Origin: a virus
Lineage: Duplodnaviria > Caudoviricetes
DNA: 64,000 bases
Virus record (IMG/VR): IMGVR_UViG_3300015050_001523
Coordinates: 128,001 to 192,000 of that record
Direction: 5' to 3' (one strand)
Part shown: one piece after another, positions 1-55,725 of the stretch
Layout of the letters: every line of letters begins with the position of its first letter
Numbering within the stretch: position 1 is the first letter of the stretch
The notes under the pieces: generated by a model
Told to the model about the DNA's origin: nothing
Databases searched by the model: none
Seen by the model: only the letters and a program-made list of their open reading frames with translations
Translations under genes and position numbers: made by a program

Positions 1-1
1 C

Positions 2-614: not shown

Positions 615-641
615 GCTTGGCATCTTTCAATGTTACCAGAG

Positions 642-770: not shown

Positions 771-882
771 AAACTAAGCATAACGTATTCTGGCGAGAAC
801 GCAACCCAGTTCAGTGATTTATTTTTGGCATTCTTTATGCATGCTTAAAATTTATTAATTAATTAAAAAAGAACATTAAAAG

Positions 883-905
883 AAAAGGCGCATTATGCGC
901 CTTTT
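883..905. terminator. Bidirectional intrinsic terminator (representative of about 18 similar ones in 0.9-12.6 kb)
   Basis: AAAAGGCGC-ATTAT-GCGCCTTTT; near-identical hairpins near 1957, 2360, 3541, 4457, 5779, 6303, 8731, 9063, 9555, 10074, 10696, 11064, 11605, 11978, 12545. Confidence 0.85.
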
Positions 906-907
906 GG

Positions 908-1453: not shown

Positions 1454-1548
1454 GATTAAAAGGATAGCCTATCCGAATCAGGATGCAAGGCCAAAAATAA
1501 ATTTATTTTGATGTTGCGCGAGCGACCTTTATGGACCATCCTATAATC

Positions 1549-1953
1549 ATGGAAACCGAAGCCGCCGCTATCACTCTCAAGCCCGAGCCCACCAATAGCA
1601 AAGAAGAGCTTTTGCTGGCAAAGATTCCGATGCCTGACAGCGCCAATCAAAAGGAAGGCACGCGAAATGAATTGGAGATAAAGGTTCGGTATATCAAGGA
1701 TGGAATGGGAAGGCTCGGCGGCCGAGGCTTTTTCCTAACCATTCATGGATATGCGGTTGAAGGTCTATTTAAAACCTTTATGCTTTGTCAGGACCCTTCG
1801 GAGTATATCTTTGTCGAGCCCTGTCAGCGATTTGGCGCAAAGGCCATGAATCAGGCCGCTTCCCGCGCTTGCGGAGAAGAATTTCGCGCTAAGATCGAAA
1901 AAGAGGTTGTCAAGGCACAAAAGTATTATCTTGGAAAGACTTTTCCAATGTAA
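1549..1953 (+). CDS. Hypothetical protein, leaderless (start revised from 1531)
   Basis: TTGCGC-N17-CATCCT-N6-ATG. Confidence 0.75.
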   Translation: METEAAAITLKPEPTNSKEELLLAKIPMPDSANQKEGTRNELEIKVRYIKDGMGRLGGRGFFLTIHGYAVEGLFKTFMLCQDPSEYIFVEPCQRFGAKAMNQAASRACGEEFRAKIEKEVVKAQKYYLGKTFPM

Positions 1954-2111
1954 ATCAAAAGGCGCATAAAGCGCCTTTCTTTTTAAATGTTCTTTTTTAT
2001 TAATTAATAACAAGCCTTATGCATTAGCCATGCCAAGCGCCTTTGGCGCGGCATGAAATTAAAGATCGGTTTGAGGTTGCATCTTCGGAAAAATGCTTCA
2101 TGCTAAAAGAG

Positions 2112-2348
2112 ATGAAAGACAAGCCTCTTTATCCAGGAAATGTTTATGACAACCCGATTAAGGGGTATAACACCCTTTATGATGAGGTAAATATTGTGAT
2201 TAGGGAACTTGAGCGCCTTCGCAAGTTTGCTCATGATGATTCTCTCAAAAATGAACATGCACTTCACCGAGAAAATGCTTTAGGCCGAACTTGTGCCTAC
2301 GAAACTGCCAAATCATTGCTTAGTGATATCTTTGTTCGTCTTGAATGA
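2112..2348 (+). CDS. Hypothetical protein (start revised from 2043)
   Basis: TTGCAT(2077)-N16-CATGCT-N7-ATG. Confidence 0.7.
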   Translation: MKDKPLYPGNVYDNPIKGYNTLYDEVNIVIRELERLRKFAHDDSLKNEHALHRENALGRTCAYETAKSLLSDIFVRLE

Positions 2349-2529
2349 AACGATCCACTAAAAAGGCGCATAAAGCGCCTTTCTTTTAAATGTTCTTTTT
2401 TATTAATTAATAAATTAAGCCCATGCAAAAAGGATGCCAATGCGCCAAAGGCGCGGCATGAAATTAAAATCGATTTGGCCTTGCATCTTAGCTGGAATGC
2501 ATTATCATCAGAAGAGGAGCTAAAGAAAA

Positions 2530-2781
2530 ATGTCACGCACTACTCGAACGGTTCCAGGACATATGATTGATCGCGGCAGTTTGACAATTACTCCTGCCAT
2601 GCAAGATTATTTGGTGAAGGTTCAGCGAGGCCAGGCTCGGGCTGTAAGCACCGTTGTTTGCGAGCATGGCTGGCCCGAGCATATTTCCGGTTCAGACCGC
2701 AAGCGAATCAAGCGCTTTGTGGCGAAGGTTCGCCGCCGTCAGGCTCGGCAAGATATCCGAGATTCTTTTATGCTTGGCTGA
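2530..2781 (+). CDS. Small basic hypothetical protein (83 aa)
   Basis: TTGCAT(2481)-N16-TATCAT promoter; AGAGGAG SD. Confidence 0.75.
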   Translation: MSRTTRTVPGHMIDRGSLTITPAMQDYLVKVQRGQARAVSTVVCEHGWPEHISGSDRKRIKRFVAKVRRRQARQDIRDSFMLG

Positions 2782-2792
2782 GTCACCGCTAT

Positions 2793-3107
2793 ATGAATAA
2801 TCTCTCCGACCAAACCGCTTGCATCCATCCCAATCTCGCATCGCTTATTGCTGAGGAATTTACCCAATTTGGCTTTGTGCGAGTTAACCTCACAAACGGC
2901 TACGTGATCGAAATCGAACTTTACGATAGCGGTAACACCGCCGTGGTGGTCCGCGCGCCCGTAACGGAGCGATCCCCCTATGGAGGTTGCGATCTTATTT
3001 ACCAAACCAAGACTAAGCCCGCATCGGTTGCGATTGATGCGATGATGGCGCGGATCGTTGAATGGATGCGTCCGAAGACCGAGCCTGCTGACCTTGCACC
3101 ATTCTGA
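2793..3107 (+). CDS. Hypothetical protein (104 aa; start revised from 2658)
   Basis: In-frame ATG just after the upstream stop. Confidence 0.7.
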   Translation: MNNLSDQTACIHPNLASLIAEEFTQFGFVRVNLTNGYVIEIELYDSGNTAVVVRAPVTERSPYGGCDLIYQTKTKPASVAIDAMMARIVEWMRPKTEPADLAPF

Positions 3108-3220
3108 GAATCGAGGATGCCAGATTAAATCTGGCATCCTTTTTGCATTCTGGTTTAATTATTAATTAATAACTTTCTTTAAAATAAAAAGAGCGCAATA
3201 AATGCTGCGCTCTTTTTCCA

Positions 3221-3490
3221 TTAATAAAGTGTAAAGTTTTGGGCTGGACTTGGGCTTAGTCCGTTTAAAACGCATGCTCCAATTGCAGCAACCAAAGTAG
3301 AGGCATTATTCGTATTAAATTCGTATCCAACATATCGCTTTCCTTTGTGCATCCTGGTTTTATCCGAGCCTCCCCAAATGCAAAGTTTGTTCAAGTCTGT
3401 GCGAAGCTCGGGAGCCGAATCTTCACAAACAAAGATCCGATGTCCATAATAGGTTCCGCCAAGAACGACCACAAACTTTGGATTCTCCAT
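3221..3490 (-). CDS. Hypothetical protein (89 aa), leaderless
   Basis: TTGCTT-N16-TAGACT-N6-ATG. Confidence 0.75.
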   Translation of the reverse strand: MENPKFVVVLGGTYYGHRIFVCEDSAPELRTDLNKLCIWGGSDKTRMHKGKRYVGYEFNTNNASTLVAAIGACVLNGLSPSPAQNFTLY

Positions 3491-3568
3491 ATATAGAGTC
3501 TAATTCATGCTGAGCCAAAAGCAAGAAAGAAATCCTAAAAAAAAAGGCGCCTAAAGCGCCTTTCCTCG

Positions 3569-3766
3569 TTATTGAAGGTTAGCTAGAAATTTAGAGATCC
3601 TTTCACGAACCCATGGGTTTTCTGGGTCGTGCTCAATCGAGCCGCTTGCGGAGCTTTGGAAGGTGCTCGTGATTGCAAGAGGCGAGCCATAATGGCCCGT
3701 GCATCCGCGAAACATGCGAGCATCAATAACATCTGCCATGGTCATTTGAATAGAATTATTATTCAT
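3569..3766 (-). CDS. Hypothetical protein (65 aa)
   Basis: ORF track; follows 3773-4003 and precedes a terminator. Confidence 0.6.
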   Translation of the reverse strand: MNNNSIQMTMADVIDARMFRGCTGHYGSPLAITSTFQSSASGSIEHDPENPWVRERISKFLANLQ

Positions 3767-3772
3767 GATCTA

Positions 3773-4003
3773 TCATCCTTGCCAATTGCGCGGACGTGGA
3801 ACCGGCGGATCGTGCGGGTGTGGCTGGGCTTGAATAACAACCACTTCTGGCAAGAACCAGGACAAGTGTCCCGATGCCATGTTATAGCCAGCCAACCTTC
3901 CGCGCTCGTCGTAACGTGTTAGTCGCTTGTGTTTGGCACCGCTCCAAAACATATCTCCGTCTACAAGCTCGGACAGTGGAACTTTGATTGGGTCAGTCAC
4001 CAT
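3773..4003 (-). CDS. Hypothetical protein (76 aa; GTG at 4000 is an alternative start)
   Basis: TTGCAT-N16-CATTAT promoter, duplicated upstream of 4323. Confidence 0.65.
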   Translation of the reverse strand: MVTDPIKVPLSELVDGDMFWSGAKHKRLTRYDERGRLAGYNMASGHLSWFLPEVVVIQAQPHPHDPPVPRPRNWQG

Positions 4004-4137
4004 CTAATAATGCCAGAAGAAAGACAGGATGCAAGCAGACTTAATGATTTATTTTTTGCCGTGCCAAGGCACGGCTCATGCATGATGCTTGTTATTAATT
4101 AAGATTTTAATGCTAAATGCGCCAAAGGCGCTTCTTT

Positions 4138-4323
4138 TCAGTCGGACTTGCGCTTTGTGTCGGCCGCAATTTGAATCGCTCGTGCCGCAGCCGTAATTGC
4201 TGACAAGACGGCCGGCAACTGAGTAACTGCGAGAAAGCTCAGATCGCTGGCGAGCTTGCCGTATTTGCGAGCAGCATCCGCGATCTCCTTTTGAGTTTCG
4301 TTGTTGAGTATTGGATCAGCCAT
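4138..4323 (-). CDS. Small helical hypothetical protein (61 aa), leaderless
   Basis: TTGCAT-N16-CATTAT-N6-ATG. Confidence 0.7.
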   Translation of the reverse strand: MADPILNNETQKEIADAARKYGKLASDLSFLAVTQLPAVLSAITAAARAIQIAADTKRKSD

Positions 4324-4484
4324 AAGCTAATAATGCCAGAAGAAAGACAAGATGCAAGTACCTTCTGTCTATATTTATTTATTCCGCGCCTTTGGCGCTT
4401 GGCATCCTTTATGCATGAAAGTTTTTATTAATTAATTAATAACGGAACCTTAAATGAAAAAGGCGCTTTATGCGCCTTTTCAAA

Positions 4485-4937
4485 TTATTCGCACTTATTA
4501 TTGGAATCGATTGACGTCCAACAGCCAGAGTGTGGACCGACTTCGCCGATTTCCTCGTCAAGCATCAAAGCATAAACGGGAAAAAAGATAGAACCTCCAC
4601 CATGACTGTTAAAGTAAGGGAACCTCGCATCAATCGCTGTGCAGAGCGGCATGGTAATTGCACGATACAGAATCTCGGAATCAGAAGGTGCAATTTCCTT
4701 TCCATCATAATCGATAATGGAGGCAACAACCATCTTTCCAAGAGAGTCAACAATCGACTTGTAAGAATTGTCGACAATTTCGACCTTGATTCCTTCGGCG
4801 CTCAATTCCGCATGGATCTTCAAAGCCTTTTCGAAGGTATGATATTCTCCCTCAAAAACTCGCCTTCCGCTTCCATTACCAGGAACGCTAGGAACGAAAG
4901 AGAGGACAGCAAACGGAGCATTGATTGGCTGGCTCAT
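4485..4937 (-). CDS. Hypothetical protein (150 aa; start revised from 5105)
   Basis: TTGCTC-N16-TATCTT-N7-ATG. Confidence 0.7.
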   Translation of the reverse strand: MSQPINAPFAVLSFVPSVPGNGSGRRVFEGEYHTFEKALKIHAELSAEGIKVEIVDNSYKSIVDSLGKMVVASIIDYDGKEIAPSDSEILYRAITMPLCTAIDARFPYFNSHGGGSIFFPVYALMLDEEIGEVGPHSGCWTSIDSNNKCE

Positions 4938-5033
4938 CCCTAACAAGATAGCATCCTCCAATGAGCGAGCAACGATTAAAATAAATTTATTTTCGTTCTT
5001 GACTCTCTCGGATTCTCGGCCAGACTTATAATC

Positions 5034-5321
5034 ATGACCCGCCAGATCGCCATCGCTGAAGCTGCTCGGCCTTTCTATGTTGTGGAGGTTGCGCCGACCT
5101 ACCATCCTGTTACAGATGGAATTACTGGTTACCGCGAATACCGCGAAAGCGAAGCAAGCTACGAAACCTTTGGTGGCGCTAGCTGGCGCGTTGGAATGCT
5201 GGATCGGCGATATGGCGGGGATGTCTGGTATGCGATTCGTGATGCGCTTGGGCGTAGTGTTTACTTCCCGCGAGTCGAGCCCGAGCAGGCACCTTGCGAG
5301 GATGGCGATATTCCGTTCTAA
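5034..5321 (+). CDS. Hypothetical protein (95 aa)
   Basis: TTGACT(4999)-N16-CAGACT-N7-ATG. Confidence 0.75.
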   Translation: MTRQIAIAEAARPFYVVEVAPTYHPVTDGITGYREYRESEASYETFGGASWRVGMLDRRYGGDVWYAIRDALGRSVYFPRVEPEQAPCEDGDIPF

Positions 5322-5357
5322 GCTTGCATCCCATCATTTTCGAGGTATAACTCTCTC

Positions 5358-5792
5358 ATGGAAACCGCCGAGTCTTTTATTTCCAAGTTGAATCTTTCTT
5401 TTACTGAAAGCTTCCCTAACGGATTCATTTCGACTCAGATTCACCGGTCACTTTGCAAGGCTGATGCCTTTAAAATTTATGTTGTTTTTACGATTCTTCC
5501 GCTTGGAGCGCAAACAAACGGAATCGTTGAAAACGATCCGAGCCTGAACAAATTTTTCATTTACATCGGCGAAAATCTTGAATCTTTGCCGGAATCGATC
5601 CAAACTGATCTATTCCAAGGAAATAGGCTTTACAGCCCAAAGGGACCGCAAGCGGGCAGCGAAAAGCTGGGCTGGCGCAATGGCAAGGCATCGGCCGAAA
5701 AGATCCTAAAAAAGTTTGATCTTTTCTTTAAGAAGGTTCGGGCGATGGTCGATGCCAATGGTGGAATTGAGGCTTATCAAAAGAGCGCATAA
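5358..5792 (+). CDS. Hypothetical protein (144 aa)
   Basis: TTGCAT(5324)-N16-TATAAC-N6-ATG. Confidence 0.8.
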   Translation: METAESFISKLNLSFTESFPNGFISTQIHRSLCKADAFKIYVVFTILPLGAQTNGIVENDPSLNKFFIYIGENLESLPESIQTDLFQGNRLYSPKGPQAGSEKLGWRNGKASAEKILKKFDLFFKKVRAMVDANGGIEAYQKSA

Positions 5793-5935
5793 CGCGCTCT
5801 TTTTCTTTTTAAGATCATGGCTTATTAATTAACAAGAAAAGCCATGCAGGAAGCATGCCAAGCGCCAAAGGCGCTGCATAAAATAAACCGTCAAAGTCCG
5901 CTTGCATCTTGGCTTCTATGAGGTATCATTACATC

Positions 5936-6199
5936 ATGCGAAATCGAAACTTTCTTCTTCCTTTGGTGCTTTGCTTTGGCTTTCTTATTGGCTGCACCGT
6001 GCCCAGCGATCGGGCTATGCACGTGCTAAAGGGAGCCGGTTATACTGAGGTCAACCTCGGTGATCATGCGTGGTATAGCTGCGGAAAGGATGATACCCTC
6101 GCAACTGAGTTTGTGGCCAAAGGTCCAAATGGCCAGCGTGTTCAGGGTGCGGTTTGTTGCGGTGTTTGGGGCAAGAGCTGCACCGTTCGGCTTGACTAG
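5936..6199 (+). CDS. Small lipoprotein (87 aa)
   Basis: TTGCAT(5902)-N16-TATCAT-N6-ATG; basic N-terminus, hydrophobic stretch, lipobox LIGC. Confidence 0.8.
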   Translation: MRNRNFLLPLVLCFGFLIGCTVPSDRAMHVLKGAGYTEVNLGDHAWYSCGKDDTLATEFVAKGPNGQRVQGAVCCGVWGKSCTVRLD

Positions 6200-6203
6200 A
6201 TTT

Positions 6204-6299
6204 ATGACGACCGCGATCGGTATGCCTCTAACAATTCTAGTATGCTTATTCTCTGGAATAGCCGTTTCGCTGCTCCTAAACAAGAAACGAAGGAGCTAA
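6204..6299 (+). CDS. Possible 31-aa single-TM peptide
   Basis: MTTAIGMPLTILVCLFSGIAVSLLLNKKRRS; hydrophobic core and basic tail; lies between a gene and a terminator. Confidence 0.4.
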   Translation: MTTAIGMPLTILVCLFSGIAVSLLLNKKRRS

Positions 6300-6459
6300 A
6301 CCTAAAGGCGCATTACGCGCCTTTTCTTCTTTGCCAAAAACATTTATTAATTAATAAAAATTCTTCATGCACAAGGCATGCCAAGGCGCCAAAGGCGCGG
6401 CATGAAATTAAAGATCGATTTGAGGTTGCATCTTGATTTGGATAGGTTATCCTTGGAGT

Positions 6460-6705
6460 ATGGGAAAGACGCAACGAAACCGGAAGCAGCAGTCCAAGGG
6501 CCAAGAAATGACCCGAGCCGCCGCCCGAGCATACATGGTTCGAAACCTCAAGGATTACACCGATCGAATCAGCGGCGATGTCAATCTGACCCGCCTCGCC
6601 GAGTCATGTTGTCAAGCTTTCAATTGTAACCATGATGGTGGTCCCCTCGATCAAGAGGATCATTGGATTTGGGATGTTACCGCGGATTTCTCAAATATCC
6701 GGTAA
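6460..6705 (+). CDS. Hypothetical protein (start revised from 6433)
   Basis: TTGCAT(6426)-N16-TATCCT-N6-ATG. Confidence 0.75.
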   Translation: MGKTQRNRKQQSKGQEMTRAAARAYMVRNLKDYTDRISGDVNLTRLAESCCQAFNCNHDGGPLDQEDHWIWDVTADFSNIR

Positions 6706-6712
6706 AACCCAT

Positions 6713-6943
6713 ATGACCACAATCCTAATGTTTTTCGTGGGAATCGTTGTTGGCACAATGATTGGCTGGATTCTTGGCTGGAGCCTCATTGTTATTTGTA
6801 GCTATCCTTTGGAATGGCTCCGAAGGCGCAAGCGACTCAAGGAATTTGAGCGCGAGGAGCGCGAAAAAGAAAATGATTTGATCCTCAACTTGGATCCTCA
6901 ACTTCTAACCGAGCTAATTCAAGCATTCCGAAACCAAAAGTAA
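6713..6943 (+). CDS. Small membrane protein
   Basis: N-terminal TM helix (MTTILMFFVGIVVGTMIGWILGWSLIVI) then charged tail. Confidence 0.7.
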   Translation: MTTILMFFVGIVVGTMIGWILGWSLIVICSYPLEWLRRRKRLKEFEREEREKENDLILNLDPQLLTELIQAFRNQK

Positions 6944-7058
6944 AAAAATCAAACGAAAAAATGGCGAATTTTCGCCATTTTTTGCTTAAGGTATCAGGTT
7001 ATTAATTAATTAATCTTAAGAATGCAAAAAATGTTCCAAAGGATTTCCTTTGGAACAT

Positions 7059-7160
7059 TGCACCAAATAGGATTTGAACCTATATCCCTCCAGACAACGC
7101 TGGTAGCACTTAATTCTTGCAAAAATCAGTGCAGTGCTTTACCCATTAAGCTATTGGTGC
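7059..7160 (-). ncRNA. Atypical 102-nt tRNA-like RNA (anticodon not assignable)
   Basis: Acceptor GCACCAA/TTGGTGC, D-arm GCTT-AATGGGTA-AAGC, T-arm ATAGG-TTCAAAT-CCTAT; about 52-nt central region with two hairpins; terminator hairpin at 7031-7058. Confidence 0.75.
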
Positions 7161-7405
7161 GATTTAAATTGCCCAGTCCCAAAAAGAACTTGACAAAAGA
7201 TAAAGCGCGAAAAGGCACATTCCAAAAACAGCGCAGGTTGCAACAACCATTGTCCAAGTAATAATGTCTGAAATGAGCATTTGGGTGGAGACCTTCATAT
7301 GCTTAATGATGGCAGAAAAAATCAGAAGCGCAAGCCATTTTTTCGTTTGATTTTTTGGCAAAAATTTAAATAAAAAAGGGAGCCCGACCGGCTCCCTTTC
7401 TCGCA

Positions 7406-7661
7406 TGTCTTTCCAGGCTGTCAAGCATGCCAAGATTTGATCAAAACTAGATTGTTCATGCTGAAACTTTCTAGCCTTTAGCTTGTCTTTCCAAGCTGTC
7501 AAGCATGCCAAGATTTGATCAAAACTAGATTGTTCATGCTGAAACTTTCTAGCCTTTAGCTTGTCTTTCCAAGCTGTCAAGCATACCAAGATTTGATCAA
7601 AACTAGATTGTTAATGCTGAAACTTTCTAGCCTTTAGCTTGTCTTTCCAAGCTGTCAAGCA
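7406..7661. repeat. 78-bp tandem repeat (about 3.3 copies), plus a solo core copy at 7770-7791
   Basis: TGTCTTTCCA recurs at 7406, 7484, 7562, 7640; core GCTTGTCTTTCCAAGCTGTCAA. Confidence 0.95.
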
Positions 7662-8315
7662 TATCTTTTTAAGATCCAGGTGCTATTATGCCGGATAGCC
7701 GCCTTTAAGACTGTTATTCCAAGTTAATCCCGACCAAGTGTGCAAAACAGCCAAAAAGTTTGGTCGAATGCTTGTCTTTCCAAGCTGTCAACCCTTAGAC
7801 TTGCGTCACAGGCTTTAAGAAGCTGTCCGCCGACTTTTCGGCGGAGCTAAGAGTTAGTTTTATCTGGACCATTCCAGTCGAGCCATTGGCTCTAATACAC
7901 TTTTTTTCAGAAATTTTTGTTAGGGGTTGAAAGCGACTTATCGCTTCGGAGGAGCCCGCGCAGTGTTATTAGATTTGTTCATTTTTGTCCTTTCAGACAG
8001 AAGATGGCTGAATCAGACAGAAGAGAAGATGGCCGAAGGAACCGTAATCAAGAAAACAAAGGTAAAAACGATGAAAGCGGTCGTCATTTTGGTTTCTTTC
8101 TGGCGGGAGAAGTTCTCCGCTGCCGACCCTCAAAGTATGAGGCATTCTGCCGAGGATGCAAGCCGCCTTTGACGATTTAATTTGCGGCGACAAAGGCGCC
8201 TTGGCATGGTTCATGCATGGCTTAATTTATTAATTAAGAACATTGCGTCAAAGGCGCAAAAAATTTAAGATCGATTTGGGCTTGCATCTTACCTTGGCCA
8301 TGGTATCCTGAAGTC

Positions 8316-8711
8316 ATGGCACTAACCAAAGCTGTCGCTGGTCTTGCTCGCGTGATGGGTCTCCAATCCTCGCGCTTGGCGCTCCCAAACGAAAAGGGAG
8401 ACGCAGAAGTTGCGCGATGCAAGAAATGCGCGAGCTACATTCTGAGCGAGAATCGCCATGACTTTGTGACTTGTTTTTGTGGCGCAGTTTCGATTGATGG
8501 TGGCCGAGACTACACGCGAATTACTGGAAATGACGAGGATTATGAACTTTTGTCGGTTGTGTTCGGATACGATACGGAGGAACAACTAAAACAAAAAATC
8601 CTAATTCTTTCCGCGCGATTAATGCCAAAAATTAATACAGAATTATATGGGCTCTTGCTCGAATTGATGCAAGCCGAAATTGAGCTAGATCGGGTTCGCG
8701 CTAGGCACTAA
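8316..8711 (+). CDS. Cys-rich putative Zn-binding phage protein (131 aa)
   Basis: CKKC...HDFVTCFCGAVSIDGGRDY motif; TTGCAT(8282)-N16-TATCCT-N6-ATG. Confidence 0.8.
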   Translation: MALTKAVAGLARVMGLQSSRLALPNEKGDAEVARCKKCASYILSENRHDFVTCFCGAVSIDGGRDYTRITGNDEDYELLSVVFGYDTEEQLKQKILILSARLMPKINTELYGLLLELMQAEIELDRVRARH

Positions 8712-8896
8712 ACAAACCAAACATTCCTTAAGAGCGCCTTGTGCGCCCTTTTCTTCTTGAGTTATTAATTAATAACAATTATCATGCATTAAGGATGCCA
8801 AGGCGCCTTTGGCGCGGCATAAAATAAATCGACCGAAGGCTTGCATCTTCTCTAGACTCTGATAAGATAAACCTGACTCCAAAAAGGAACCCAACC

Positions 8897-9043
8897 ATGC
8901 AAAAGTTCATCATCGCCTCCATCATCGCTTTTTCTCTCTTTCTTTCTGGTTGCGATCTCGCCGAGCAGGGTTACACTTGCGACGACGCTGGTCAGCTTAT
9001 CGAGCCGACCGGAAAGCCGACCGGCCTGCCCTGTCCTTTCTGA
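8897..9043 (+). CDS. 48-aa lipoprotein, absent from ORF track
   Basis: MQKFIIASIIAFSLFLSGCDLAEQ...; lipobox LSGC; AAGGA SD; TTGCAT(8841)-N16-TAAGAT. Confidence 0.75.
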   Translation: MQKFIIASIIAFSLFLSGCDLAEQGYTCDDAGQLIEPTGKPTGLPCPF

Positions 9044-9221
9044 GAGGAAAGACACAACTTTGGAAAAGGGCGCTTTATGCGCCCTTTGTTTTTTAAAGTT
9101 TTCGACTTATTAATTAATAAAACTTATTATGCATGAAGGATGCCAAGCGCCAAAGGCGCGGCATAAAATAAATCGTCAAAGATGGGTTGCGTCTTATGTA
9201 AATCCACACTAATATGAAGTC

Positions 9222-9536
9222 ATGTCCAGTCCATTTCTTGTCGATGTCAAGCGGTATCTCCTCCATTTGATTGCAACTGACATTGTTACTGGATTACCAT
9301 TTGGAGGTGGTTTTCCGAAATCGCTAATGATGCAACTGCTTCCGTGGTCAAACTTGCAAGCTGATTTCATTGAAGCAATGCGCGGCAAAACTTGCGGCGT
9401 GGGAGAGGCTACTGATACAGACCCCGATGGTGAATGTGTGTACTACATGGATAATGTCGTCGACTGGCTCCAAAGCGACGAAACCGAACAAGTCTCTCCC
9501 TATGTTAAAAGCCTCTCAAAACTCAAGGACATGTAA
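9222..9536 (+). CDS. Hypothetical protein (104 aa), leaderless
   Basis: TTGCGT-N17-TAATAT-N6-ATG. Confidence 0.75.
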   Translation: MSSPFLVDVKRYLLHLIATDIVTGLPFGGGFPKSLMMQLLPWSNLQADFIEAMRGKTCGVGEATDTDPDGECVYYMDNVVDWLQSDETEQVSPYVKSLSKLKDM

Positions 9537-9712
9537 AAAATCCAGCCGCATCTAAAGGGGCATAAAGCCCCTTTTTTCTTTAAGTTTCCTAAATTATTAA
9601 TTAATAAAAATCCTTCATGCATAGTCCATGCCAAAGCGCCAAAGGCGCTTCATAAAATAAATCGTCAATGCGGCTTGCATAACTCTTTGATTGGTTTATG
9701 CTTCGGATTGCA

Positions 9713-10057
9713 ATGCTTCTCACTTTCGAAGAAAAGCTCATCGGGATTTCTCTCATGCAAGCGGGATGCTCGGCTTCCTCGGCTTCCGTTCAAATGAATG
9801 CATATTCAGGAGGCCAGTACACACTGGAAAAGATGCGCGATCTTTTCAAGTCCTTGGAAGAGGCCAAGAAAACTCACAAGGCGATTGGCGGCGTATTGAT
9901 CGAACTTCAAAACCCAGAAGCCACGGTAGAAGATCGCGTGTTTTTTCTGTATTCCATGGACAATCGAAGCGTGCAAGTAACAAAAGCGTTTCTGAACACC
10001 TGCTTGCCAGAATGGGCGATCCAGCTCGAAAAGATCATGGATTCGTGGGATTTCTAA
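9713..10057 (+). CDS. Hypothetical protein (start revised from 9698)
   Basis: TTGCAT(9675)-N16-TATGCT overlaps the track start codon. Confidence 0.7.
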   Translation: MLLTFEEKLIGISLMQAGCSASSASVQMNAYSGGQYTLEKMRDLFKSLEEAKKTHKAIGGVLIELQNPEATVEDRVFFLYSMDNRSVQVTKAFLNTCLPEWAIQLEKIMDSWDF

Positions 10058-10234
10058 CAAGTCACACGTTCAAAAAGGGCGCACAAAGCGCCCTTTTTCT
10101 TTTTTAAGTTCCTGAGTTTATTAATTAATAAAGCTTATTATTCATGAATCGTGCCAAAGCGCCAAAGGCGCATGATAAAATAAATCGTCAAAGATGGCTT
10201 GCGCCCCTCGCCAATCCAAGCTAAGGTTAATCCG

Positions 10235-10678
10235 ATGGCAAATTTCAAAACCCTCCTCGCTGCTTCCCTCGTTCGCAATTCGCGCAAGGAACAGGCCCAG
10301 GAATGGCAGCAATCCATCGCGCTTGCCGCGCAAAGCGAAGATAACTTCGAGCGCGAGGTTGAAGTCCGAACCCGTGCGATTTGTGAGCATGATTTCTGCG
10401 CGAGTTTCACCAGCCTCGTGGAAAGCGAGGTTCACAGCGCGCTTCTCGCGCAGGTCAAGGAACTTTCGATTTGCGCGGCATGCGCAGAGTATGAAAGTCG
10501 GCATTGTTCGGATTGTCGCGGATATGGCTTCACTTCATGGGAGAATCGTTCGACTCGGGCCATGCTTGCCGATCCGCATACTGTGAACAAAATCGATGAA
10601 TCCATCCGAGCCGAGCTTGAAAGCCGCTTGGGAAAAGGAGCTTGGGAGGATATGATGGAATGCATGAATGATGCATAA
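10235..10678 (+). CDS. Hypothetical protein with CxxC pairs (start revised from 10199)
   Basis: TTGCGC-N17-TAAGGT-N7-ATG; CAAC and CSDC motifs. Confidence 0.75.
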   Translation: MANFKTLLAASLVRNSRKEQAQEWQQSIALAAQSEDNFEREVEVRTRAICEHDFCASFTSLVESEVHSALLAQVKELSICAACAEYESRHCSDCRGYGFTSWENRSTRAMLADPHTVNKIDESIRAELESRLGKGAWEDMMECMNDA

Positions 10679-10851
10679 CAAATCAAACATTCCCAAGGGC
10701 GCATAAGGCGCCCTTTTTCTTTTTAGACTTCCAATTTATTAATTAATAAATTTGAATATGCATGAAGGATGCCAAGGCGCCAAAGGCGCGGCATAAATAA
10801 AAAATAAATCGTTGCTTGACTTCGGCCGAGACTCGATTAGAATGATCTTCG

Positions 10852-11043
10852 ATGGAAACCGTCCGCTTCACCTTCACCGCTACCGCCATCGGCTCGACTC
10901 ACGAGATCACGATTGTCGTTCCGATTGAAGATGATCCAGAGCTTGCTTACTCGGAACTTGCGGACAACGCGCAAGAGCAAGCTGAGCAGATCGCGCGCGA
11001 GCGACTCGGAGTCGAGGATGTCGAGGTTCTGCTGCGCAGCTAG
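10852..11043 (+). CDS. Small acidic hypothetical protein (63 aa)
   Basis: TTGACT(10816)-N16-TAGAAT-N8-ATG. Confidence 0.75.
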   Translation: METVRFTFTATAIGSTHEITIVVPIEDDPELAYSELADNAQEQAEQIARERLGVEDVEVLLRS

Positions 11044-11222
11044 CGCCGCTCTCTTCGGATCCTTAAGGGCGCTTGAAGCGCCCTTTTCTTTTTAAGTTTC
11101 CTGAGCTATTAATTAATAAAGTTTACTATGCATAAAGGATGCCAAAGCGCCAAAGGCGCGGCATAAAATAAATCGACCGAGGTTGCTTGCATCTTCTCAA
11201 TCATGATTTATAGTTCCTTTGC

Positions 11223-11579
11223 ATGGCGACCCAAATGGTTCCGACCCTCTCGATCTTCTCTATGCCTGAGAACGTCTATTGGCAGGCGAACGAATTGCGC
11301 AATTCGGACAATCCGCATCGATACTCTGCGTGCAATTATTTCACGCATGGTAGCGTATACTTCCAAAAAGGCCATTGGCTGAGCGAAGACATGTGGATCG
11401 TCGAAATCGATGGCGAGGAGATCGCTACCTTTAAGCTTCGATTCTTGACCGAGGCGGTTGCTTTTATGTCGGTCCAAGTCGACAAGGATGGTGATCGTGA
11501 TGCGATGGTGAATGCTATGCAAAGCACGCAAAGTGACTATGAGGAGGATTGGGATTATGAAGAGGAGTTTCGTGAATAA
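11223..11579 (+). CDS. Hypothetical protein with acidic tail (118 aa)
   Basis: TTGCAT(11187)-N16-TATAGT-N8-ATG. Confidence 0.75.
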   Translation: MATQMVPTLSIFSMPENVYWQANELRNSDNPHRYSACNYFTHGSVYFQKGHWLSEDMWIVEIDGEEIATFKLRFLTEAVAFMSVQVDKDGDRDAMVNAMQSTQSDYEEDWDYEEEFRE

Positions 11580-12024
11580 ACAGGATAAAATCAAACATTC
11601 CTTAAGGGCGCTTTGTGCGCCCTTTTTGCTTTAAGTTTCCTAAATTATTAATTAATAACCCCTAGCCATACACCTTCTATGCCAACGTCTTTATTTTGTT
11701 GCACATTATTCGCAGCATAAGCTGGCTTCCTAGAAGCTTCCAGAAGGCGGCGAGGACTCGGCCGGTACCCTCGCCGCCCGACAGGCCGAAAACGGCTCAG
11801 CAAGGCGCATAACAATGTTTCCTTTGATGCTAGCATCTGGCCGGCGCTGCCCAAAAACGGAGGAGAAGATCGAACCCTAGCCTCCACCCCCCTCCAAAAA
11901 ATGGCCCAAATCTTGCTTAAATTCTGGGCGTTAATTAATTAAAATTCTCTATGCAAAAAATGGACCAAAGTTAAATAAAAAAGGGCGCTTTATGCGCCCT
12001 AACAAAATGAAAGCTTTGGGAGGA

Positions 12025-12408
12025 TTAAATGAAATAATCGCTTTCGTACCAAAGATCATGGTCAAAGGTATCAAAACCCATAACCTCGTTGAAGGCGTGA
12101 GCGCCTCCTATCATTCCTGCATGAACTGCCATTTCATCCAAGCATGCACGCTCGAATTGCGCAGCTTCATGCGCCTTTTGCGCATTCATTTGCGCAATTT
12201 CTGCGTCAGTTTTGACGCGGCGAGAAACTCCCAAATCTGGGATCTCAAGCCAAGCTGTCCAAACCAACATTTTATTTAGAGGTTTTGAATCGTGAGGATT
12301 GTGAAAAAACTCCAAAGCCTCAGCTTCCGTTTCGAACGAAACGCTAGAATGACAATCATCGTTACCATTGGCAGGATTGGAACCCCAGAAAAAAACTTCG
12401 ATAGCCAT
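12025..12408 (-). CDS. Hypothetical protein (127 aa)
   Basis: ORF track; TTGCCT...TATAAA upstream. Confidence 0.75.
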   Translation of the reverse strand: MAIEVFFWGSNPANGNDDCHSSVSFETEAEALEFFHNPHDSKPLNKMLVWTAWLEIPDLGVSRRVKTDAEIAQMNAQKAHEAAQFERACLDEMAVHAGMIGGAHAFNEVMGFDTFDHDLWYESDYFI

Positions 12409-12620
12409 CGCACAAATTTATAGCAAAGGACATGCTCCAAGGCAAGCCAACTTAAAGATTTATTTTTTGGCATCATTTATGCATGAGCCAAATTTATTAA
12501 TTAATGAATTTCTCGATGCAAAAAATAGGCCGAAACATTAAAATAAAAAGGGCGCATAAAGCGCCCTTCAAAAGCTATTAATAAAAAATGGCGCGGATCT
12601 TGCAACCCGCGCCATTGGCG

Positions 12621-13586
12621 CTAACCGAGCACCGCTTCGATTTTCTCGACCGCGAACTTCACGCGATCGTTACCCTTCGCGTCGAAATGATTGCGCTCGT
12701 CGGACAAAACCCACAAAACATAATCAACCATCGATTTGTTAGCATGGATCTTCGAGGGATGCGGGATTCGCGCGATGTCGGCGCGAAGGTCGCGCATCAA
12801 CCGATTGAGCCGATCAAACGCGGTCTCGGCGCGCTCGGGATCCGGCGCAGCCTGGCCATCATGCGCACGGAGCGCTTCATCGGTCACGTTGAGGATCTCG
12901 CGGTAAATGCGCCCAAGCATGCCGGGGTTGTTGCAGTGGCGGTGATCGCGCCCTTCGGTCCAAGTGCCAAGGCGCCCAACGCGCTTCACAGTGTGACCCT
13001 TGCGCTGGTCGCGCGTCTTCGAGCTGACGCCGGGAGCGCAGATCCGAATCTGATCCGAGCCGAGCGGCCGAACGGCGCCGCCAACGCGCTTGCCGTTGGC
13101 GCTCTTGCCGCCAACAATCGAAGTGAAGACCGAGACCACGATCGGCATGCCGCGCGAGTCGCGCCCAACCTCACGAACCCAGATCTCCTCACCGGGAGTC
13201 AGCGGAGATCCCGCGGTCTCGCTGGCGAACGCGAACCCCGCAATGAGCAGAACATCGCGGATCGCGCCAGCGAGCATTTCGCGCGATTGCGTGCTATGCG
13301 GATCGTACTTGGTTTCCGCGGTGTACGCGGTATGCGGGGTTTGCGCCCACGTCTGCGACTCTCGCGCAGCATCGGCCGCGGCTTGCGCAGCCGCACGCAA
13401 ATCTTGCTCCGGGTTCTCAGCGCGCAGTTCCCGCGAAGCTTGCGCGAGGAGCGCATCGTAATCCAGACCATGCTCGGCGCAGATCTTGCACGCGTTAAGT
13501 CGCGCGTTAAGCGCTTCGGTCGAGCTAGTCGCGGGATGCGCAACGATCTTAAGGAGCTTTACCACTTTGGAGGAGAAGTTCGACAT
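12621..13586 (-). CDS. Hypothetical protein with DUF2786-like N-terminus (321 aa)
   Basis: KVVKLLKIVAHPATSSTEALNARLNACKICAEHGLD resembles the DUF2786 helical motif; TTGCTT-N16-CATAAT promoter; most GC-rich gene in the window. Confidence 0.65.
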   Translation of the reverse strand: MSNFSSKVVKLLKIVAHPATSSTEALNARLNACKICAEHGLDYDALLAQASRELRAENPEQDLRAAAQAAADAARESQTWAQTPHTAYTAETKYDPHSTQSREMLAGAIRDVLLIAGFAFASETAGSPLTPGEEIWVREVGRDSRGMPIVVSVFTSIVGGKSANGKRVGGAVRPLGSDQIRICAPGVSSKTRDQRKGHTVKRVGRLGTWTEGRDHRHCNNPGMLGRIYREILNVTDEALRAHDGQAAPDPERAETAFDRLNRLMRDLRADIARIPHPSKIHANKSMVDYVLWVLSDERNHFDAKGNDRVKFAVEKIEAVLG

Positions 13587-13899
13587 GGTAGCTTTGTCGC
13601 TTTCGGCACCGGTCAGCGGCGCATCGGGAAAAAATCAGGATCGATTTGATTATGGTCCGAGATCAAGATTAAGCAAGCGATACGCAAAGAAAAAAATCCA
13701 CCTAATTAAATCAATCACTTACACTTGGCACCAATCTTGCCGATCAGAATTCCTAACATAAGCGATTTTTTAACTTTCTTTTAACTAATATTCCTATGGA
13801 TCGAATCTTGCAAAGGATCTTCCTTGGATCAGATCTTGCATAAAAAGCACGTTATTAATTAATAGCTCAGGCATATGCATAAAAGATGCCAGCGCAAGG

Positions 13900-16610
13900 T
13901 TTGCGCTCCAAAGCAAGCCAAAATCATTGAACATTTAAGGCATAGGGCTGGGACGTCGTATAAGGCTCATGGCGAGGCGATCGCCAAAACAAGGGAGAGG
14001 TTAGGGGTCACCCTTAAAAACCCGTCTCCGTCAATCCTCGCGCGTCGAGCCTAGAACCGCTGCTAGTCGCCGATCCAAGCCCGAAACCGCCAAAATCCCT
14101 TAAATCCGCAAGCCGCGCACAAGAAAAGATAAGGAAAGGTGAGCAAACCTCATGAAATGTAATTAAAGGTAAAGAGATGGAATCAATCATAAACAAACCT
14201 CCCACCATGTAAGTAAAGGTCATGACGTCTGGGATAATGTCATGACATATAAGTGAATTGGATCAAAGATAATAAAATATAACCAAACATAATGAAAGGT
14301 AGGCAAACATCGGGAAAGGTAATAAGAGGTAGCCTAAGATAATCCAAGGAAATGAAAGGTAGGCAAATGTCATGAGACTTGGGGAAACCTAAGAGAAGTA
14401 AACACGCGCCGCATAACCTATACAAAAAACTTATATTGAAGGGAAATAAAATCAAATATCCCTCATGTATGACACCATCCCAGCTTGTAAACCGTTGCAG
14501 CATTTACTGTAACAGCATTCATTGATTCAATAAACACTGAAACATCTTAACCGTCTCACTCGCAACCGTTACAGTAAACGCTGTCACAGTGTTCGCTGAA
14601 ACACTAATCAATGTCTCAATAAAAATGTTTCAGTAAACAATGACATAATAACATAACTAACCCTTATCCCATCCTTGCCTACATATAAGCTTTCCTCATG
14701 ACATTTCCTTACCCCTTTTTGTGAACTAGCTTACATATCGTTTCATGCGTTGCAACATCACTTGAAACACTCCGCGCATGATTCGCAAACATCGTTCCAG
14801 CATGGCTAAACATCATGCTAGACCCCCATATCCCTCAGGTTTGGCGTGAAACATGGGGGCAATGGTCCTATCGCCCCCCATCCTATCGCCTCGCAGAATC
14901 CATCCTGGCGCGCGACAGCCTATGAAGGTTTCTTGCCTACATATAAACTTTCCATAAACTAACTCTCCCATAATAAATCTAACCTTCCTATAACCAACTA
15001 TTTCCTAACTCTATACAAATTATATGCCATCAAATTCCTAACTTTCCTTAACCCTTTCATAATTCCTTCTATATCTTCCGTTCCTTCCTCTCCTATTACC
15101 ATTTAAAGCTAATAATAATCAGATAACCCATTTCCCTTATGGATCAATGGCCCAATTACCATTTCAAACATTCCTGCCATATCTAATATGTTTGTTTTGC
15201 TATATTTGGCCAAATAACTGCTTAAACTATTATAAATAGTAAAGCTTACTTTACTATCTCCTTAGTTTTTCAAAATATTGAATATTAATTATATCATTAT
15301 TTTTTGAATTGTTGGGATTGTCTAAAACGATAGCTATGTTCGATTAGGGAGCTTTTTGACATATTAGCCGCTATAAATAACGATCAGTTTCTTGCATATT
15401 TCATGCCAGTTAAAAGGCTACCATTCCTCAAAAACCTATTATGCCGAATCATTCATATTTAATGATCCTAACTCCACGAATTCAAACATTTCGCATTAAT
15501 TAATAACCCCTTATTTCATTATTTCCAGAATATCAAAGAAAGCTAGCAAAACAAAAGGATGGAAAAAGCTAACAAAAGCGATATTTCCAAGAAAGCTAAA
15601 ATGCCGAATCATTCATATTTAATGATCCTAGCTATTCGAATTCGAAGTTTTGATAGTTATGTTTGGATTGGTAGAAATATAAGGAAAGTTAGAAATGGGA
15701 GTTATTAATTAAGAAGGTAAAGGCATGCACAAGGCATGCCAACCACAAAAGTTAGGAATGATAGATTAGGAAGGAAAGTTAGGAAGGAAAGTTAGGAATG
15801 AGAGAAAGAGGAGGAGAACCCAGCCAAATCAAACCTCCTATTCCTACCTAACCTTATATCTCTTATGCTAGATATATGGGATATGTCTGGGTTGATAGGT
15901 TATGCTCGCCCATCCTTAATTAACAATCCTTCTCTATGCAATCCCTATGCCATGTCTCCATGTTCGATATGTTAGCTTTGTTCCAAAAGCTCTTAATTAA
16001 CAAATCCGATTCATGCAACCCTTATGCCAATAGCTTTGATACTAATGTTAGGAATGGGAGCCTTATATCCCTTCAGCTTTGTTAGGTTATGCTTTGGCAT
16101 GAAGTATGCAAGATGTTAGGTTTGGTAGGCTAACATTGTTCTAAATTTAGTTATAGGAATGGATGCTATGTTGGGATTGTTAGGATTGATAGGTAAATTT
16201 TAAATAGCTTTGGCAGCTTTGATGCTTTCGCGCCAAGGCCGCCATGTTCGGTTTGTTATTAATGTTTGATATGGGAGGATTGGGTATATTAGTTTTCTTC
16301 GATATGTTAGCTTCGCCGGGTTTGCGCTCGGGCCGCATAGCTCCTATTCCTCCCGGTAGGATACCCGCCTACATCACCCCCCTTTAGACCCCCCCTGTTT
16401 ACCCCCCCTTACACCCCCCTACCATGCGTCACTAATCGCCCCCTTATGGACCTGCTCTAAGAGCCCTCGCAAAAATTTTCTAAATTTTTAACATTTTTAA
16501 ATGATTACATTTTTCCGAAAATGTAATCAAAAAATATTTGATATATGGGTCGAAAAAATTTTTGGGGAAAATTTTTGAAAATTAGGAATTTATAGATGTT
16601 TATGTTTATG
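13900..16610. other. About 2.7-kb non-coding, repeat-rich region (candidate genome terminus or origin)
   Basis: No credible ORF; CCTAAC and GTTAGG repeats in opposite arms; 30-bp direct repeat at 15441 and 15601; sigma54-like boxes at about 15392, 15725, 15937, 16014, 16094. Confidence 0.55.
16377..16419 (-). other. G-quadruplex-forming motif
   Basis: Minus strand G6-TGTAA-G7-TAAACA-G7-TCTAAA-G6. Confidence 0.7.
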
Positions 16611-49376: not shown

Positions 49377-49451
49377 AAAATTGCTCGTCTTTCCGAGCTG
49401 TCATTTTCTTAGTATTCTGGAACATCTAAGAACAACAGAACAATTAAGAAA

Positions 49452-55573: not shown

Positions 55574-55725
55574 GCCGGTCTTTTCCCGGCTGTCAAGCAG
55601 GCTTCACTAAAAGATTCGTATCTATCTTTCACAACTCCCGGAGGTAATGGGGTTGGGCCTATTTGTGACGTTATTTGTTTTGTTTCCGCAACGCACCAAC
55701 GGAATCCTCTTTTGCGCAGGAACTA
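55574..55725 (-). ncRNA. Unclassified RNA ending in GACAGCCGG-GAAAAGA-CCGGC hairpin
   Basis: 3' motif matches the 7.4-7.8 kb repeat core with compensatory changes; internal UUCCG/CGGAA and AAAGAU/AUCUUU stems. Confidence 0.55.

What the first reader, a model, noticed from the sequence alone, without database searches (positions are those of the whole stretch)
7406..7850. 78-bp tandem repeat whose core hairpin recurs, with compensatory changes, 48 kb away at the 3' end of an ncRNA
Seen in sequence: the minus-strand core GCUUGACAGCUUG-GAAAGA-CAAGC occurs at 7481, 7559 and 7637 and (from UUGACA) at 7770, with a variant GCCUG/CAUGC at about 7403. GCUUGACAGCCGG-GAAAAGA-CCGGC occurs at 55574-55598 in the tRNA cluster, with the stem swapped CUUG/CAAG to CCGG/CCGG. 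The units upstream of the 7637 and 7770 copies have different bodies with their own hairpins (CGACCAA/UUGGUCG; CCGCCGA/UCGGCGG). Inference: a processed array of small RNAs, each ending in the same motif. It could be a protein-binding or processing tag, or an RNA decoy analogous to phage pseudo-ToxI repeats or RNA anti-CRISPRs. I cannot place the motif in a named family from memory.
Basis: partly seen in the sequence, partly recalled or inferred. Interest (0 to 1): 0.7.

Follow-up and report, generated by a model that had tools for sequence, protein, structure and literature searches.

The report
Amplified phage RNA leader-hairpin array
A 22-base RNA hairpin that sits beside tRNA genes in phages and prophages of many bacterial phyla, and is in no RNA catalogue, occurs five times in a row in this giant freshwater phage; its job is unknown, most likely to mark boundaries between folded RNA units.

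Summary
A 78-bp unit is repeated 3.3 times at 98% identity. The minus-strand core, UGACA + 5-bp stem + GAAAGA + stem, occurs five times at 7403-7791.

The core is not private to this phage. In the viral hits the two unconstrained stem pairs were Watson-Crick in 108 of 118 cases and G.U in the other 10. Mismatches favour the sense strand, and the motif runs in the same direction as its neighbouring genes. In 33 of 239 hits a tRNA starts 2-12 nt downstream.

The motif also occurs just after IscB omega-RNA (HEARO), just before terminators, and twice in an early leader RNA of lambdoid E. coli prophages. Rfam 15 has no match. Earlier notes of this scan describe the same hairpin on other DNA.

Best reading: an RNA-level boundary hairpin between folded RNA modules, here recently amplified together with a 56-nt body. 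The mechanism (processing or end protection) is inferred. Decoy, antitermination and recombination-site readings remain open.

The parts
7770..7791 (-). Hairpin copy 1: TTGACA, stem GCTTG/CAAGC, loop GAAAGA. It is followed by ATT and then the helix CGACCAA.
7659..7769 (-). Body A: a unique 111-nt spacer with its own hairpins, including CGACCAA/TTGGTCG at 7766-7760 and 7737-7731.
7637..7658 (-). Hairpin copy 2, the start of the 78-nt tandem units.
7581..7636 (-). Body B, copy 1: 56 nt with an imperfect hairpin CTAGA...TCTAG and the palindrome TTTGATCAAA.
7559..7580 (-). Hairpin copy 3.
7503..7558 (-). Body B, copy 2.
7481..7502 (-). Hairpin copy 4.
7425..7480 (-). Body B, copy 3.
7403..7424 (-). 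Hairpin copy 5, degenerate: stem GCCTG/CATGC with one C.U mismatch. It lies at most 2 nt before the terminator.
7372..7402 (-). Intrinsic-terminator-like hairpin (13 pairs, then a T run) that closes the array.
7792..7935 (-). Structured, apparently non-coding RNA upstream of the array, including the hairpin CCGCCGA/TCGGCGG at 7844-7827. Fold z-score -2.6.
49383..49404 (-). Solitary hairpin ATGACA-GCTCG-GAAAGA-CGAGC, 6 nt (AATTTT) upstream of tRNA-Thr at 49303-49376.
55574..55596 (-). Solitary variant TTGACA-GCCGG-GAAAAGA-CCGGC, followed by a T run. It lies in the spacer between tRNA-Tyr and tRNA-Phe, at the end of a candidate ncRNA of about 150 nt.

Best explanation
The repeat is a recently amplified instance of a widespread, uncatalogued RNA hairpin of phages and other mobile elements. 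The consensus is c-UGRCR, a 5-bp stem (G-C, C-G, N-N, N-N, G-C), the loop GAAAGA, then A and an A/C/U-rich tail.

The hairpin acts in the sense transcript, here the minus strand, as a modular boundary between independently folding RNA units. It usually lies 2-12 nt in front of a tRNA, a tRNA-shaped RNA, an sRNA module or a terminator, and about 30-55 nt behind an IscB omega-RNA.

In this phage one transcript would carry, in order: a structured 5' part; hairpin; body A; three units of hairpin plus a 56-nt body B; a degenerate hairpin; and a terminator.

Shown: the hairpin is real, covaries, is strand-specific, keeps a tight distance to tRNAs, is widely distributed and is absent from Rfam.

Inferred: it marks where a conserved host RNA-processing activity (RNase P or RNase E type) separates modules, and/or it protects the new ends. 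Also inferred: the tandem copies arose by unequal recombination between hairpin copies.
For: Covariation without selection. The pattern left two stem pairs free. In viral hits, 108 of 118 were Watson-Crick and 10 were G.U.

Strand specificity. Over all 239 hits the free pairs were 439 Watson-Crick, 23 sense-strand G.U, and only 6 A.C, three of which are likely chance hits in Collinsella.

Orientation. Flanking ORFs were co-directional with the motif in 55 loci and opposite in 12.

Position relative to tRNAs. A tRNA starts 2-12 nt downstream in 33 of 239 hits, mostly at 4-6 nt. No tRNA ends within 15 nt upstream. A T-arm lies at tRNA distance downstream in 55 of 204 hits, against 7-12 of 204 at random positions. 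A terminator starts within 30 nt in 20 of 204, against 5 of 204.

Modular use elsewhere. In L031 all four tRNA-like genes have their own copy. L102 and the E. coli prophage leader L248 carry two copies about 50 nt apart. In L102 the second copy lies about 10 nt before an RprA-like module and terminator; in L248 that module lies about 280 nt further on. About 10 loci carry the hairpin 31-57 nt after HEARO, inside an ORF-less IS200/IS605 element.

Own window. All 7 copies are on the tRNA strand and one lies 6 nt before tRNA-Thr. The array ends at a terminator. The units are 98% identical.
Against: No cleavage or RNA end has been observed anywhere. The RNA run gave only two unstranded 151-nt contigs, at 7720-7870 and 7967-8117.

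A plain processing or stabilising hairpin would not need an invariant loop and 5' flank, and no binding partner has been identified.

About half of the hits have no recognisable module downstream. Local folding around the motif is only slightly stronger than in controls.

The bodies in this array are not tRNA-like, and single units fold no better than shuffles (z-score -1.45).

No promoter for the minus-strand transcript was located.
Confidence: 0.45

Rival explanations
1. Decoy or sponge. The hairpin is a high-affinity site for a conserved host protein, such as an RNA-binding regulator, a ribonuclease or a defence nuclease. The five-copy array titrates that protein, as CsrB/RsmZ titrate CsrA, or as amplified pseudo-ToxI repeats neutralise ToxN.
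For: The loop and 5' flank are invariant, which implies a sequence-specific partner. Multi-copy arrangements occur in several unrelated elements. The amplification here is recent, at 98% identity. The 8-mer GGAAAGAC equals 23S rRNA 2056-2063, as given in the abstract of PMC12887398 shown, so mimicry of an rRNA site is conceivable.
Against: Most copies are single and sit at a fixed short distance from a tRNA, which points to action in cis. The phage has no ToxN gene and no partner has been identified. An 8-mer match to rRNA is expected by chance in roughly 5% of cases (my estimate). GGA is not presented as in CsrA sites (own knowledge).
Confidence: 0.2
2. Transcription-level element. The hairpin is a boxB- or put-like structure in the nascent RNA that modifies RNA polymerase or recruits Nus factors. 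Untranslated operons (tRNA and ncRNA arrays, early leaders) would then escape Rho-dependent or intrinsic termination.
For: Its shape resembles lambda boxB, which has a 5-bp stem and a GAAGA or GAAAA loop (own knowledge). In E. coli lambdoid prophages two copies lie near the start of the early leftward leader, upstream of two terminators and beside a GAAGA hairpin. The hairpin precedes untranslated RNA genes. RNA polymerase and Nus factors are conserved across phyla, which would explain the cross-phylum invariance.
Against: A 4-6 nt spacing to each tRNA, with a copy before every tRNA in L031, is not needed for processive antitermination. No boxA-like sequence is present. The first ORF after the E. 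coli leader is acidic and not N-like. Copies also lie immediately before terminators and inside an IS-derived element.
Confidence: 0.15
3. DNA-level cassette boundary. The conserved 22-27 bp acts as a recombination or mobility site that shuffles RNA-gene modules between phages, comparable to the PeSL cassettes of T4-type phages or to folded attC sites. The tandem array is then a by-product of recombination between copies.
For: The motif flanks modules of very different kinds in unrelated mobile elements across phyla. The 78-bp unit begins and ends in the motif, as unequal crossing-over would produce. HNH endonuclease genes lie within the tRNA cluster.
Against: G.U pairs outnumber A.C pairs 23 to 6, and the motif is co-oriented with transcription. 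Both point to a sense single strand rather than duplex DNA. The stems vary, leaving only 7-8 bp blocks of identity. No recombinase is consistently nearby (one search shows heterogeneous neighbours).
Confidence: 0.1
4. Each unit carries a sigma-70-type promoter, with TTGACA as the -35 box, so the array is a row of promoters for short RNAs.
For: TTGACA is exact in six of the seven copies in this phage.
Against: No -10 element lies 16-18 nt downstream, and the promoter scan reports no site at 7400-7800. In other genomes the base before TGACA is C in about half of cases and T in only 37 of 236, and variants such as TGGCG occur. A start site placed by such a promoter would fall inside the tRNA.
Confidence: 0.03

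Closest known systems
Lambda nut-site boxB hairpins (and the RNA-only put elements of HK022)
   Same: A small hairpin with a 5-bp stem and a purine-rich G-A-A-type loop in the nascent RNA of phage early transcripts. In E. coli prophages the GAAAGA hairpins occupy the place in the early leader where nutL would lie.
   Different: The loop has six bases, not five. The 5' flank is UGRCR directly abutting the stem, instead of a boxA some bases upstream. No N-like protein was found. The motif occurs across phyla, tightly in front of tRNAs, and inside IS-derived elements.
Small tRNA-associated hairpin motifs in Rfam: Acido-Lenti-1 (RF01687) and Flavo-1
   Same: Short conserved hairpins of unknown function found next to tRNA genes.
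   Different: cmscan gives no match at any copy. The only weak Acido-Lenti-1 hits (E 0.53) fall on an unrelated hairpin, GCGCC-AAA-GGCGC, at 9147 and 11147. The sequence and the taxonomic range also differ.
ToxI antitoxin repeats and the phage pseudo-ToxI mimic of type III toxin-antitoxin systems
   Same: Tandem RNA repeats in a phage followed by a terminator, with recent copy-number expansion.
   Different: The unit is 78 nt, of which only about 22-27 nt is conserved elsewhere. That core mostly occurs singly. No ToxN-family gene is present in the genome. There is no evidence of a pseudoknot or of a cleavage site.
Promoter-early stem-loop (PeSL) regulatory cassettes of T4-type phages
   Same: Short conserved stem-loop cassettes that flank small modules and favour duplication and shuffling. 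The surrounding 45% GC island of this phage is full of such cassettes.
   Different: PeSLs are lineage-specific units of promoter plus terminator. This hairpin is neither, and it is shared across phyla.
Leader hairpins upstream of tRNA and tRNA-shaped RNAs, as noted earlier in this scan (e1-4387279, e1-2912181, e1-5322085)
   Same: The same UGAC / stem / GAAAGA / stem motif, a few bases upstream of tRNAs or tRNA look-alikes in phages of many phyla, and not in Rfam.
   Different: Here the hairpin is amplified in tandem with a body that is not tRNA-like. Only one of the 26 tRNA genes found in the window carries it.

Membership tests
Uncatalogued phage/MGE GAAAGA leader hairpin (defined here) | 5' flank UGRCR directly abutting the stem | tested here: met
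   All 7 window copies have TGACA, preceded by T in six and by A in one.
Uncatalogued phage/MGE GAAAGA leader hairpin (defined here) | 5-bp stem G-C, C-G, N-N, N-N, G-C with compensatory changes | tested here: met
   The window stems are TT/AA, CG/CG and TC/GA, and the 7403 copy has one mismatch. Across hits, 108 of 118 unconstrained pair sets are Watson-Crick.
Uncatalogued phage/MGE GAAAGA leader hairpin (defined here) | Hexaloop GAAAGA | tested here: met
   Six copies have it exactly. The 55574 copy has GAAAAGA. Rare loop variants also occur elsewhere.
Uncatalogued phage/MGE GAAAGA leader hairpin (defined here) | Sense orientation, 2-12 nt upstream of a folded RNA (tRNA, helix or terminator) | tested here: met
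   The 49383 copy is 6 nt before tRNA-Thr. The array copies are 2-5 nt before a helix or the terminator. All copies are on the tRNA strand.
Type III toxin-antitoxin antitoxin RNA (ToxI, CptI, TenpI) or phage pseudo-ToxI | Tandem repeats of about 34-45 nt that are the whole functional unit | tested here: not met
   The period is 78 nt, and only about 22-27 nt of it recurs elsewhere, mostly as single copies.
Type III toxin-antitoxin antitoxin RNA (ToxI, CptI, TenpI) or phage pseudo-ToxI | Cognate ToxN-family endoribonuclease, adjacent to the repeats or in the host | tested here: inconclusive
   PF13958 has no match in the phage genome, but the control genomes gave no match either, and the host is unknown.
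Lambda-type nut site | boxB: 5-bp stem with a GNRA-like pentaloop | tested here: inconclusive
   The stem length fits. The loop is a hexamer, GAAAGA, against GAAGA or GAAAA (boxB sequences from own knowledge).
Lambda-type nut site | boxA (CGCUCUUA-like) a few bases upstream, and an arginine-rich N protein | tested here: not met
   The upstream columns carry no conserved sequence beyond UGRCR. The first ORF behind the E. coli leader is acidic.
Rfam families, including Acido-Lenti-1, Flavo-1, the self-cleaving ribozymes and isrK | Covariance-model score at or near the gathering threshold | tested here: not met
   There is no hit at any copy at gathering or at E up to 10. The best is isrK, 18.8 bits against a threshold of 50, and it rests mainly on the terminator.
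Sigma-70 promoter | A -10 hexamer 16-18 nt after TTGACA | tested here: not met
   The scan reports no site in 7400-7800. The downstream columns show no TAnnnT pattern.
RNA anti-CRISPR (solitary CRISPR-repeat mimic) | Sequence and structure match to the host's CRISPR repeat | not testable with these tools
   The host is unknown and no CRISPR-repeat library is available. Near-invariance across phyla argues against this reading.

The most novel reading that the evidence does not exclude
The hairpin is a universal punctuation signal of phage and mobile-element RNA. A factor conserved in all bacteria would read it, for example the RNase P holoenzyme acting through the leader, or a factor that normally recognises the identical GGAAAGAC strand of the 23S rRNA peptidyl-transferase centre. 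Phages would then use one portable 22-nt tag to have tRNAs, tRNA look-alikes, guide RNAs and sRNAs cut out or shielded in any host. Arrays such as this one would double as competitive sinks for that factor.
Probability: 0.12. Interest if true: 0.85.

Novelty: new variant of a known kind. Interest (0 to 1): 0.6.

Why it matters
The motif is short, sharply defined and found in phages and prophages of Proteobacteria, Bacteroidota, Firmicutes, Spirochaetes and others. It is nevertheless absent from Rfam 15 and from the open literature I could search.

Its invariant loop and flank imply a specific, still unknown partner that is conserved across bacteria. Its position next to tRNAs, tRNA look-alikes, IscB guide RNAs and prophage early leaders suggests a general rule for how mobile elements organise untranslated transcripts.

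A stretch homologous to the E. coli prophage leader that carries it is present in about 8% of complete E. coli genomes, so the question can be tested in a standard laboratory host. This phage adds a natural amplification of the element, which may report selection on its dosage.

Tried and rejected
- Rfam at gathering and at permissive E-values, on the window and on 36 related loci: nothing at the hairpin.
- Literature searches on the sequence, on hairpins upstream of phage tRNAs, and on HEARO/IscB: nothing relevant. The one paper opened was about N4-type promoter hairpins.
- Relatives of this phage's array. The neighbouring DUF7695 protein gave no confirmed viral relatives. The 30-nt body pattern gave no viral contig. 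BLAST of 6500-9000 against phages hit only a terminator-sized stretch. Copy-number variation could therefore not be examined.
- Sequencing runs. Four runs held only single 151-178 nt contigs. RNA run X1 covers 7720-7870 and 7967-8117 at 100% identity, but without strand or ends, and DNA carry-over is not excluded. There is no cover over the 78-nt units.
- RNase P minihelix idea (hairpin followed by NCCA): the tail is A, then A or C, then C or U, and ACCA occurs in only 5 of 225.
- A conserved helix abutting the motif: the upstream helix abuts in 44% of hits against 33% of controls, and downstream there is no difference.
- A specific downstream gene: the downstream ORFs are heterogeneous, and SD-plus-start is not enriched (25 against 22 of 204).
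- Link to the phage's Ro60 gene: no Ro60 in the other hairpin loci.
- Model genomes: phage P1 has only a chance hit inside the portal gene, and E. coli K-12 MG1655 has no copy.
- Known hammerhead, twister, pistol, hatchet and HDV cores: no Rfam signal, and the sequence does not fit the hammerhead core (own knowledge).
- PHROGs and Pfam on ORFs around the array: only DUF7695 at 8316-8711.

Full report
**What is in the window.** The window is bases 128001-192000 of a 322.5-kb virus record, estimated 93% complete. The genome is about 32% GC. ARAGORN finds 25 tRNA genes, all on the minus strand between 42 and 56 kb, and Rfam adds one more at 7059-7160.

Tandem Repeats Finder reports 7406-7662 with period 78, 3.3 copies and 98% matches. 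Read on the minus strand, the region has this order:
- a structured, apparently non-coding stretch (7935-7792; fold z-score -2.6);
- hairpin copy 1 (7791-7770);
- a unique 111-nt body A;
- three units of hairpin plus a 56-nt body B;
- a fifth, degenerate hairpin (7424-7403, one C.U mismatch);
- a strong terminator-like hairpin with a T run (7402-7372).

The genome holds only two further copies, both on the same strand. The other is the variant with GAAAAGA and a CCGG stem at 55574-55596, followed by a T run.

**The core is a widespread hairpin.** I scanned IMG/VR for TGACAGC-NN-GGAAAGAC-NN-GC, leaving the two inner stem pairs free. In 108 of 118 matches the free pairs are Watson-Crick, and the other 10 contain one U.G pair. 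Chance would give about 1 in 16.

The contigs come from Proteobacteria, Bacteroidota, Clostridia, Spirochaetes and others, mostly in prophage-like settings.

Over all 239 matches the free pairs are 439 Watson-Crick, 23 sense-strand G.U and 6 A.C; three of the A.C cases look like chance hits in a Collinsella coding region. This asymmetry points to a single-stranded sense molecule. Flanking long ORFs are co-directional with the motif in 55 loci and opposite in 12.

Secondary copies in the same loci show which positions may vary. The flank is UGRCR (TGACA, TGGCA, TGGCG, TGACG, TGACT). The outer stem pairs also covary (TGCGG/CCGCA, AATCG/CGGTT, GATCG/CGATC). The loop is almost always GAAAGA. An alignment of 73 instances shows changes on both sides at four of the five pairs, but those rows were selected for pairing. 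The base after the stem is A in 76% of cases, followed by an A/C/U-rich tail. Nothing upstream of UGRCR is conserved.

**Where the hairpin sits.**
- In 33 of 239 matches ARAGORN finds a tRNA that starts 2-12 nt downstream on the same strand, mostly at 4-6 nt. No tRNA ends within 15 nt upstream.
- A T-arm lies at tRNA distance downstream in 55 of 204 unique sites, against 7-12 of 204 at random positions. A terminator starts within 30 nt in 20 of 204, against 5 of 204. A Shine-Dalgarno sequence plus start codon is not enriched.
- In L031 each of four tRNA-like genes has its own copy.
- In about ten loci the hairpin lies 31-57 nt after a full Rfam HEARO match, which is the IscB omega-RNA. In L169 this is inside an ORF-less element bounded by the typical IS200/IS605 end hairpins.
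- In enterobacterial prophages it closes a tRNA-tRNA-ncRNA operon just before the terminator.
- In a lambdoid E. coli prophage, two copies about 50 nt apart lie near the start of the non-coding early leader that follows the CI-like repressor gene. A stretch homologous to this leader is present in 454 of 5426 complete E. coli genomes. The leader ends in an RprA-like module (48 bits, below the Rfam threshold) and a terminator. A further copy precedes the next terminator.

The common denominator is a position at the boundary between independently folding RNA modules in untranslated transcripts. The hairpin is tightly coupled to the module downstream and loosely coupled to the one upstream.

**What it is not.**
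- Rfam 15 has no family for it, at gathering or at permissive thresholds. The best nearby hit is isrK at 18.8 bits against a threshold of 50, driven mainly by the terminator. The weak Acido-Lenti-1 hits fall on an unrelated hairpin, GCGCC-AAA-GGCGC.
- It is not a sigma-70 promoter. No -10 element follows, the base before TGACA is mostly C elsewhere, and a start site would fall inside the tRNA.
- It is not an RNase P minihelix with an NCCA tail.
- The phage has no ToxN-type gene.
- The 78-nt unit has no relatives in IMG/VR, so only the 22-27-nt core is conserved.

**Mechanism.** The data show an RNA-level, sequence-specific, modular hairpin. They do not show what reads it.

I rank a boundary function first: a site where a conserved host activity separates modules, and/or a structure that protects the new ends. 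This is the only reading that accounts for three things together: the 4-6-nt spacing to tRNAs, the copy before every tRNA-like gene in L031, and the position between omega-RNA and the rest of the IS.

The invariant loop and flank still require an unidentified partner. That keeps three rivals alive:
- a titration or decoy role for multi-copy arrays such as this one;
- a boxB- or put-like antitermination role, suggested by the shape of the hairpin and by its place in E. coli early leaders upstream of terminators;
- a DNA-level role in module shuffling.

The 8-mer GGAAAGAC is identical to 23S rRNA 2056-2063, as given in the abstract of PMC12887398. I treat this as a lead that could well be chance.

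The 98% identity of the units, each bounded by the motif, fits recent unequal recombination between hairpin copies. Whether the copy number is under selection is unknown.

**Transcription.** One freshwater metatranscriptome holds two 151-nt contigs identical to 7720-7870 and 7967-8117. This is only a weak hint, without strand information. I could not locate the promoter of the minus-strand transcript.

**Relation to earlier notes of this scan.** Other agents described the same UGAC / stem / GAAAGA hairpin upstream of tRNAs and tRNA-shaped RNAs in phages of many phyla, and also found no Rfam family and no function. I re-derived the distribution, covariation and tRNA spacing independently. I add the HEARO association, the terminator-proximal class, the E. 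coli early-leader copies, and this tandem amplification.

**Verdict.** It is an instance of an undescribed but widespread phage RNA element whose function remains open. Confidence that it belongs to this hairpin family and acts as RNA is about 0.85. Confidence in the processing or boundary mechanism is about 0.45.

Noticed in passing
window 52146-53747 (-) and 54084-54189 (-): The phage encodes a 533-aa Ro60-type protein (TROVE plus Ro60 vWA domains). Directly upstream of it, 15 nt after tRNA-Leu, lies a YrlA-like Y RNA candidate (35.7 bits, E 4e-5, below the gathering score of 69). Together they look like a Ro60/Y-RNA module inside the tRNA cluster.
   Followed up: partly
window 7059-7160 (-): This is a tRNA-shaped gene (Rfam tRNA, 56 bits) with a 33-nt insertion in the anticodon-loop region. 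ARAGORN does not call it. It sits between a small hydrophobic ORF and a terminator, about 240 nt downstream of the array.
   Followed up: partly
window 1-14000 (genome 124-144 kb): This is an island of 45-48% GC in a 32% GC genome. It holds only short ORFs with no PHROG hit and a single Pfam hit (DUF7695). It is packed with repeated cassettes: a terminator AAGGGCGC...GCGCCCTT, then TTATTAATTAATAA, then a sigma-54-like box TTGGCAT-N5-TGCA, then the hairpin GCGCC-AAA-GGCGC.
   Followed up: partly
L248 3490-4300 (E. coli NZ_CM132959.1, prophage early leader): The non-coding leader after the CI-like repressor gene is about 900 nt long. It contains the GAAAGA hairpins, a boxB-like hairpin CCCUC-GAAGA-GAGGG, and a module whose last 50 nt or so copy the seed and terminator of the host sRNA RprA (48 bits, below the gathering score of 70). 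A homologous stretch is present in 454 of 5426 complete E. coli genomes.
   Followed up: partly
L169 1815-2180 and similar loci (L124, L164, L207, L235): These are ORF-less HEARO (IscB omega-RNA) elements bounded by matching end hairpins. Each carries the GAAAGA hairpin 31-57 nt after the Rfam model, and a host gene follows directly.
   Followed up: partly
window 54000-56300 (-), spacers of the tRNA cluster: Two short motifs recur between the tRNAs: TAGGATG just after several tRNAs or ncRNAs, and TTTTGCC(T/A)A followed by a T-rich run before several tRNAs. They may be processing or promoter signals of this phage.
   Followed up: no
window 42485-51079 (-): Two HNH endonuclease genes, a Sir2-family gene, a VWA-domain gene, a trypsin-like peptidase gene and a GH25 lysozyme gene are interspersed among the tRNA genes.
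   Followed up: no
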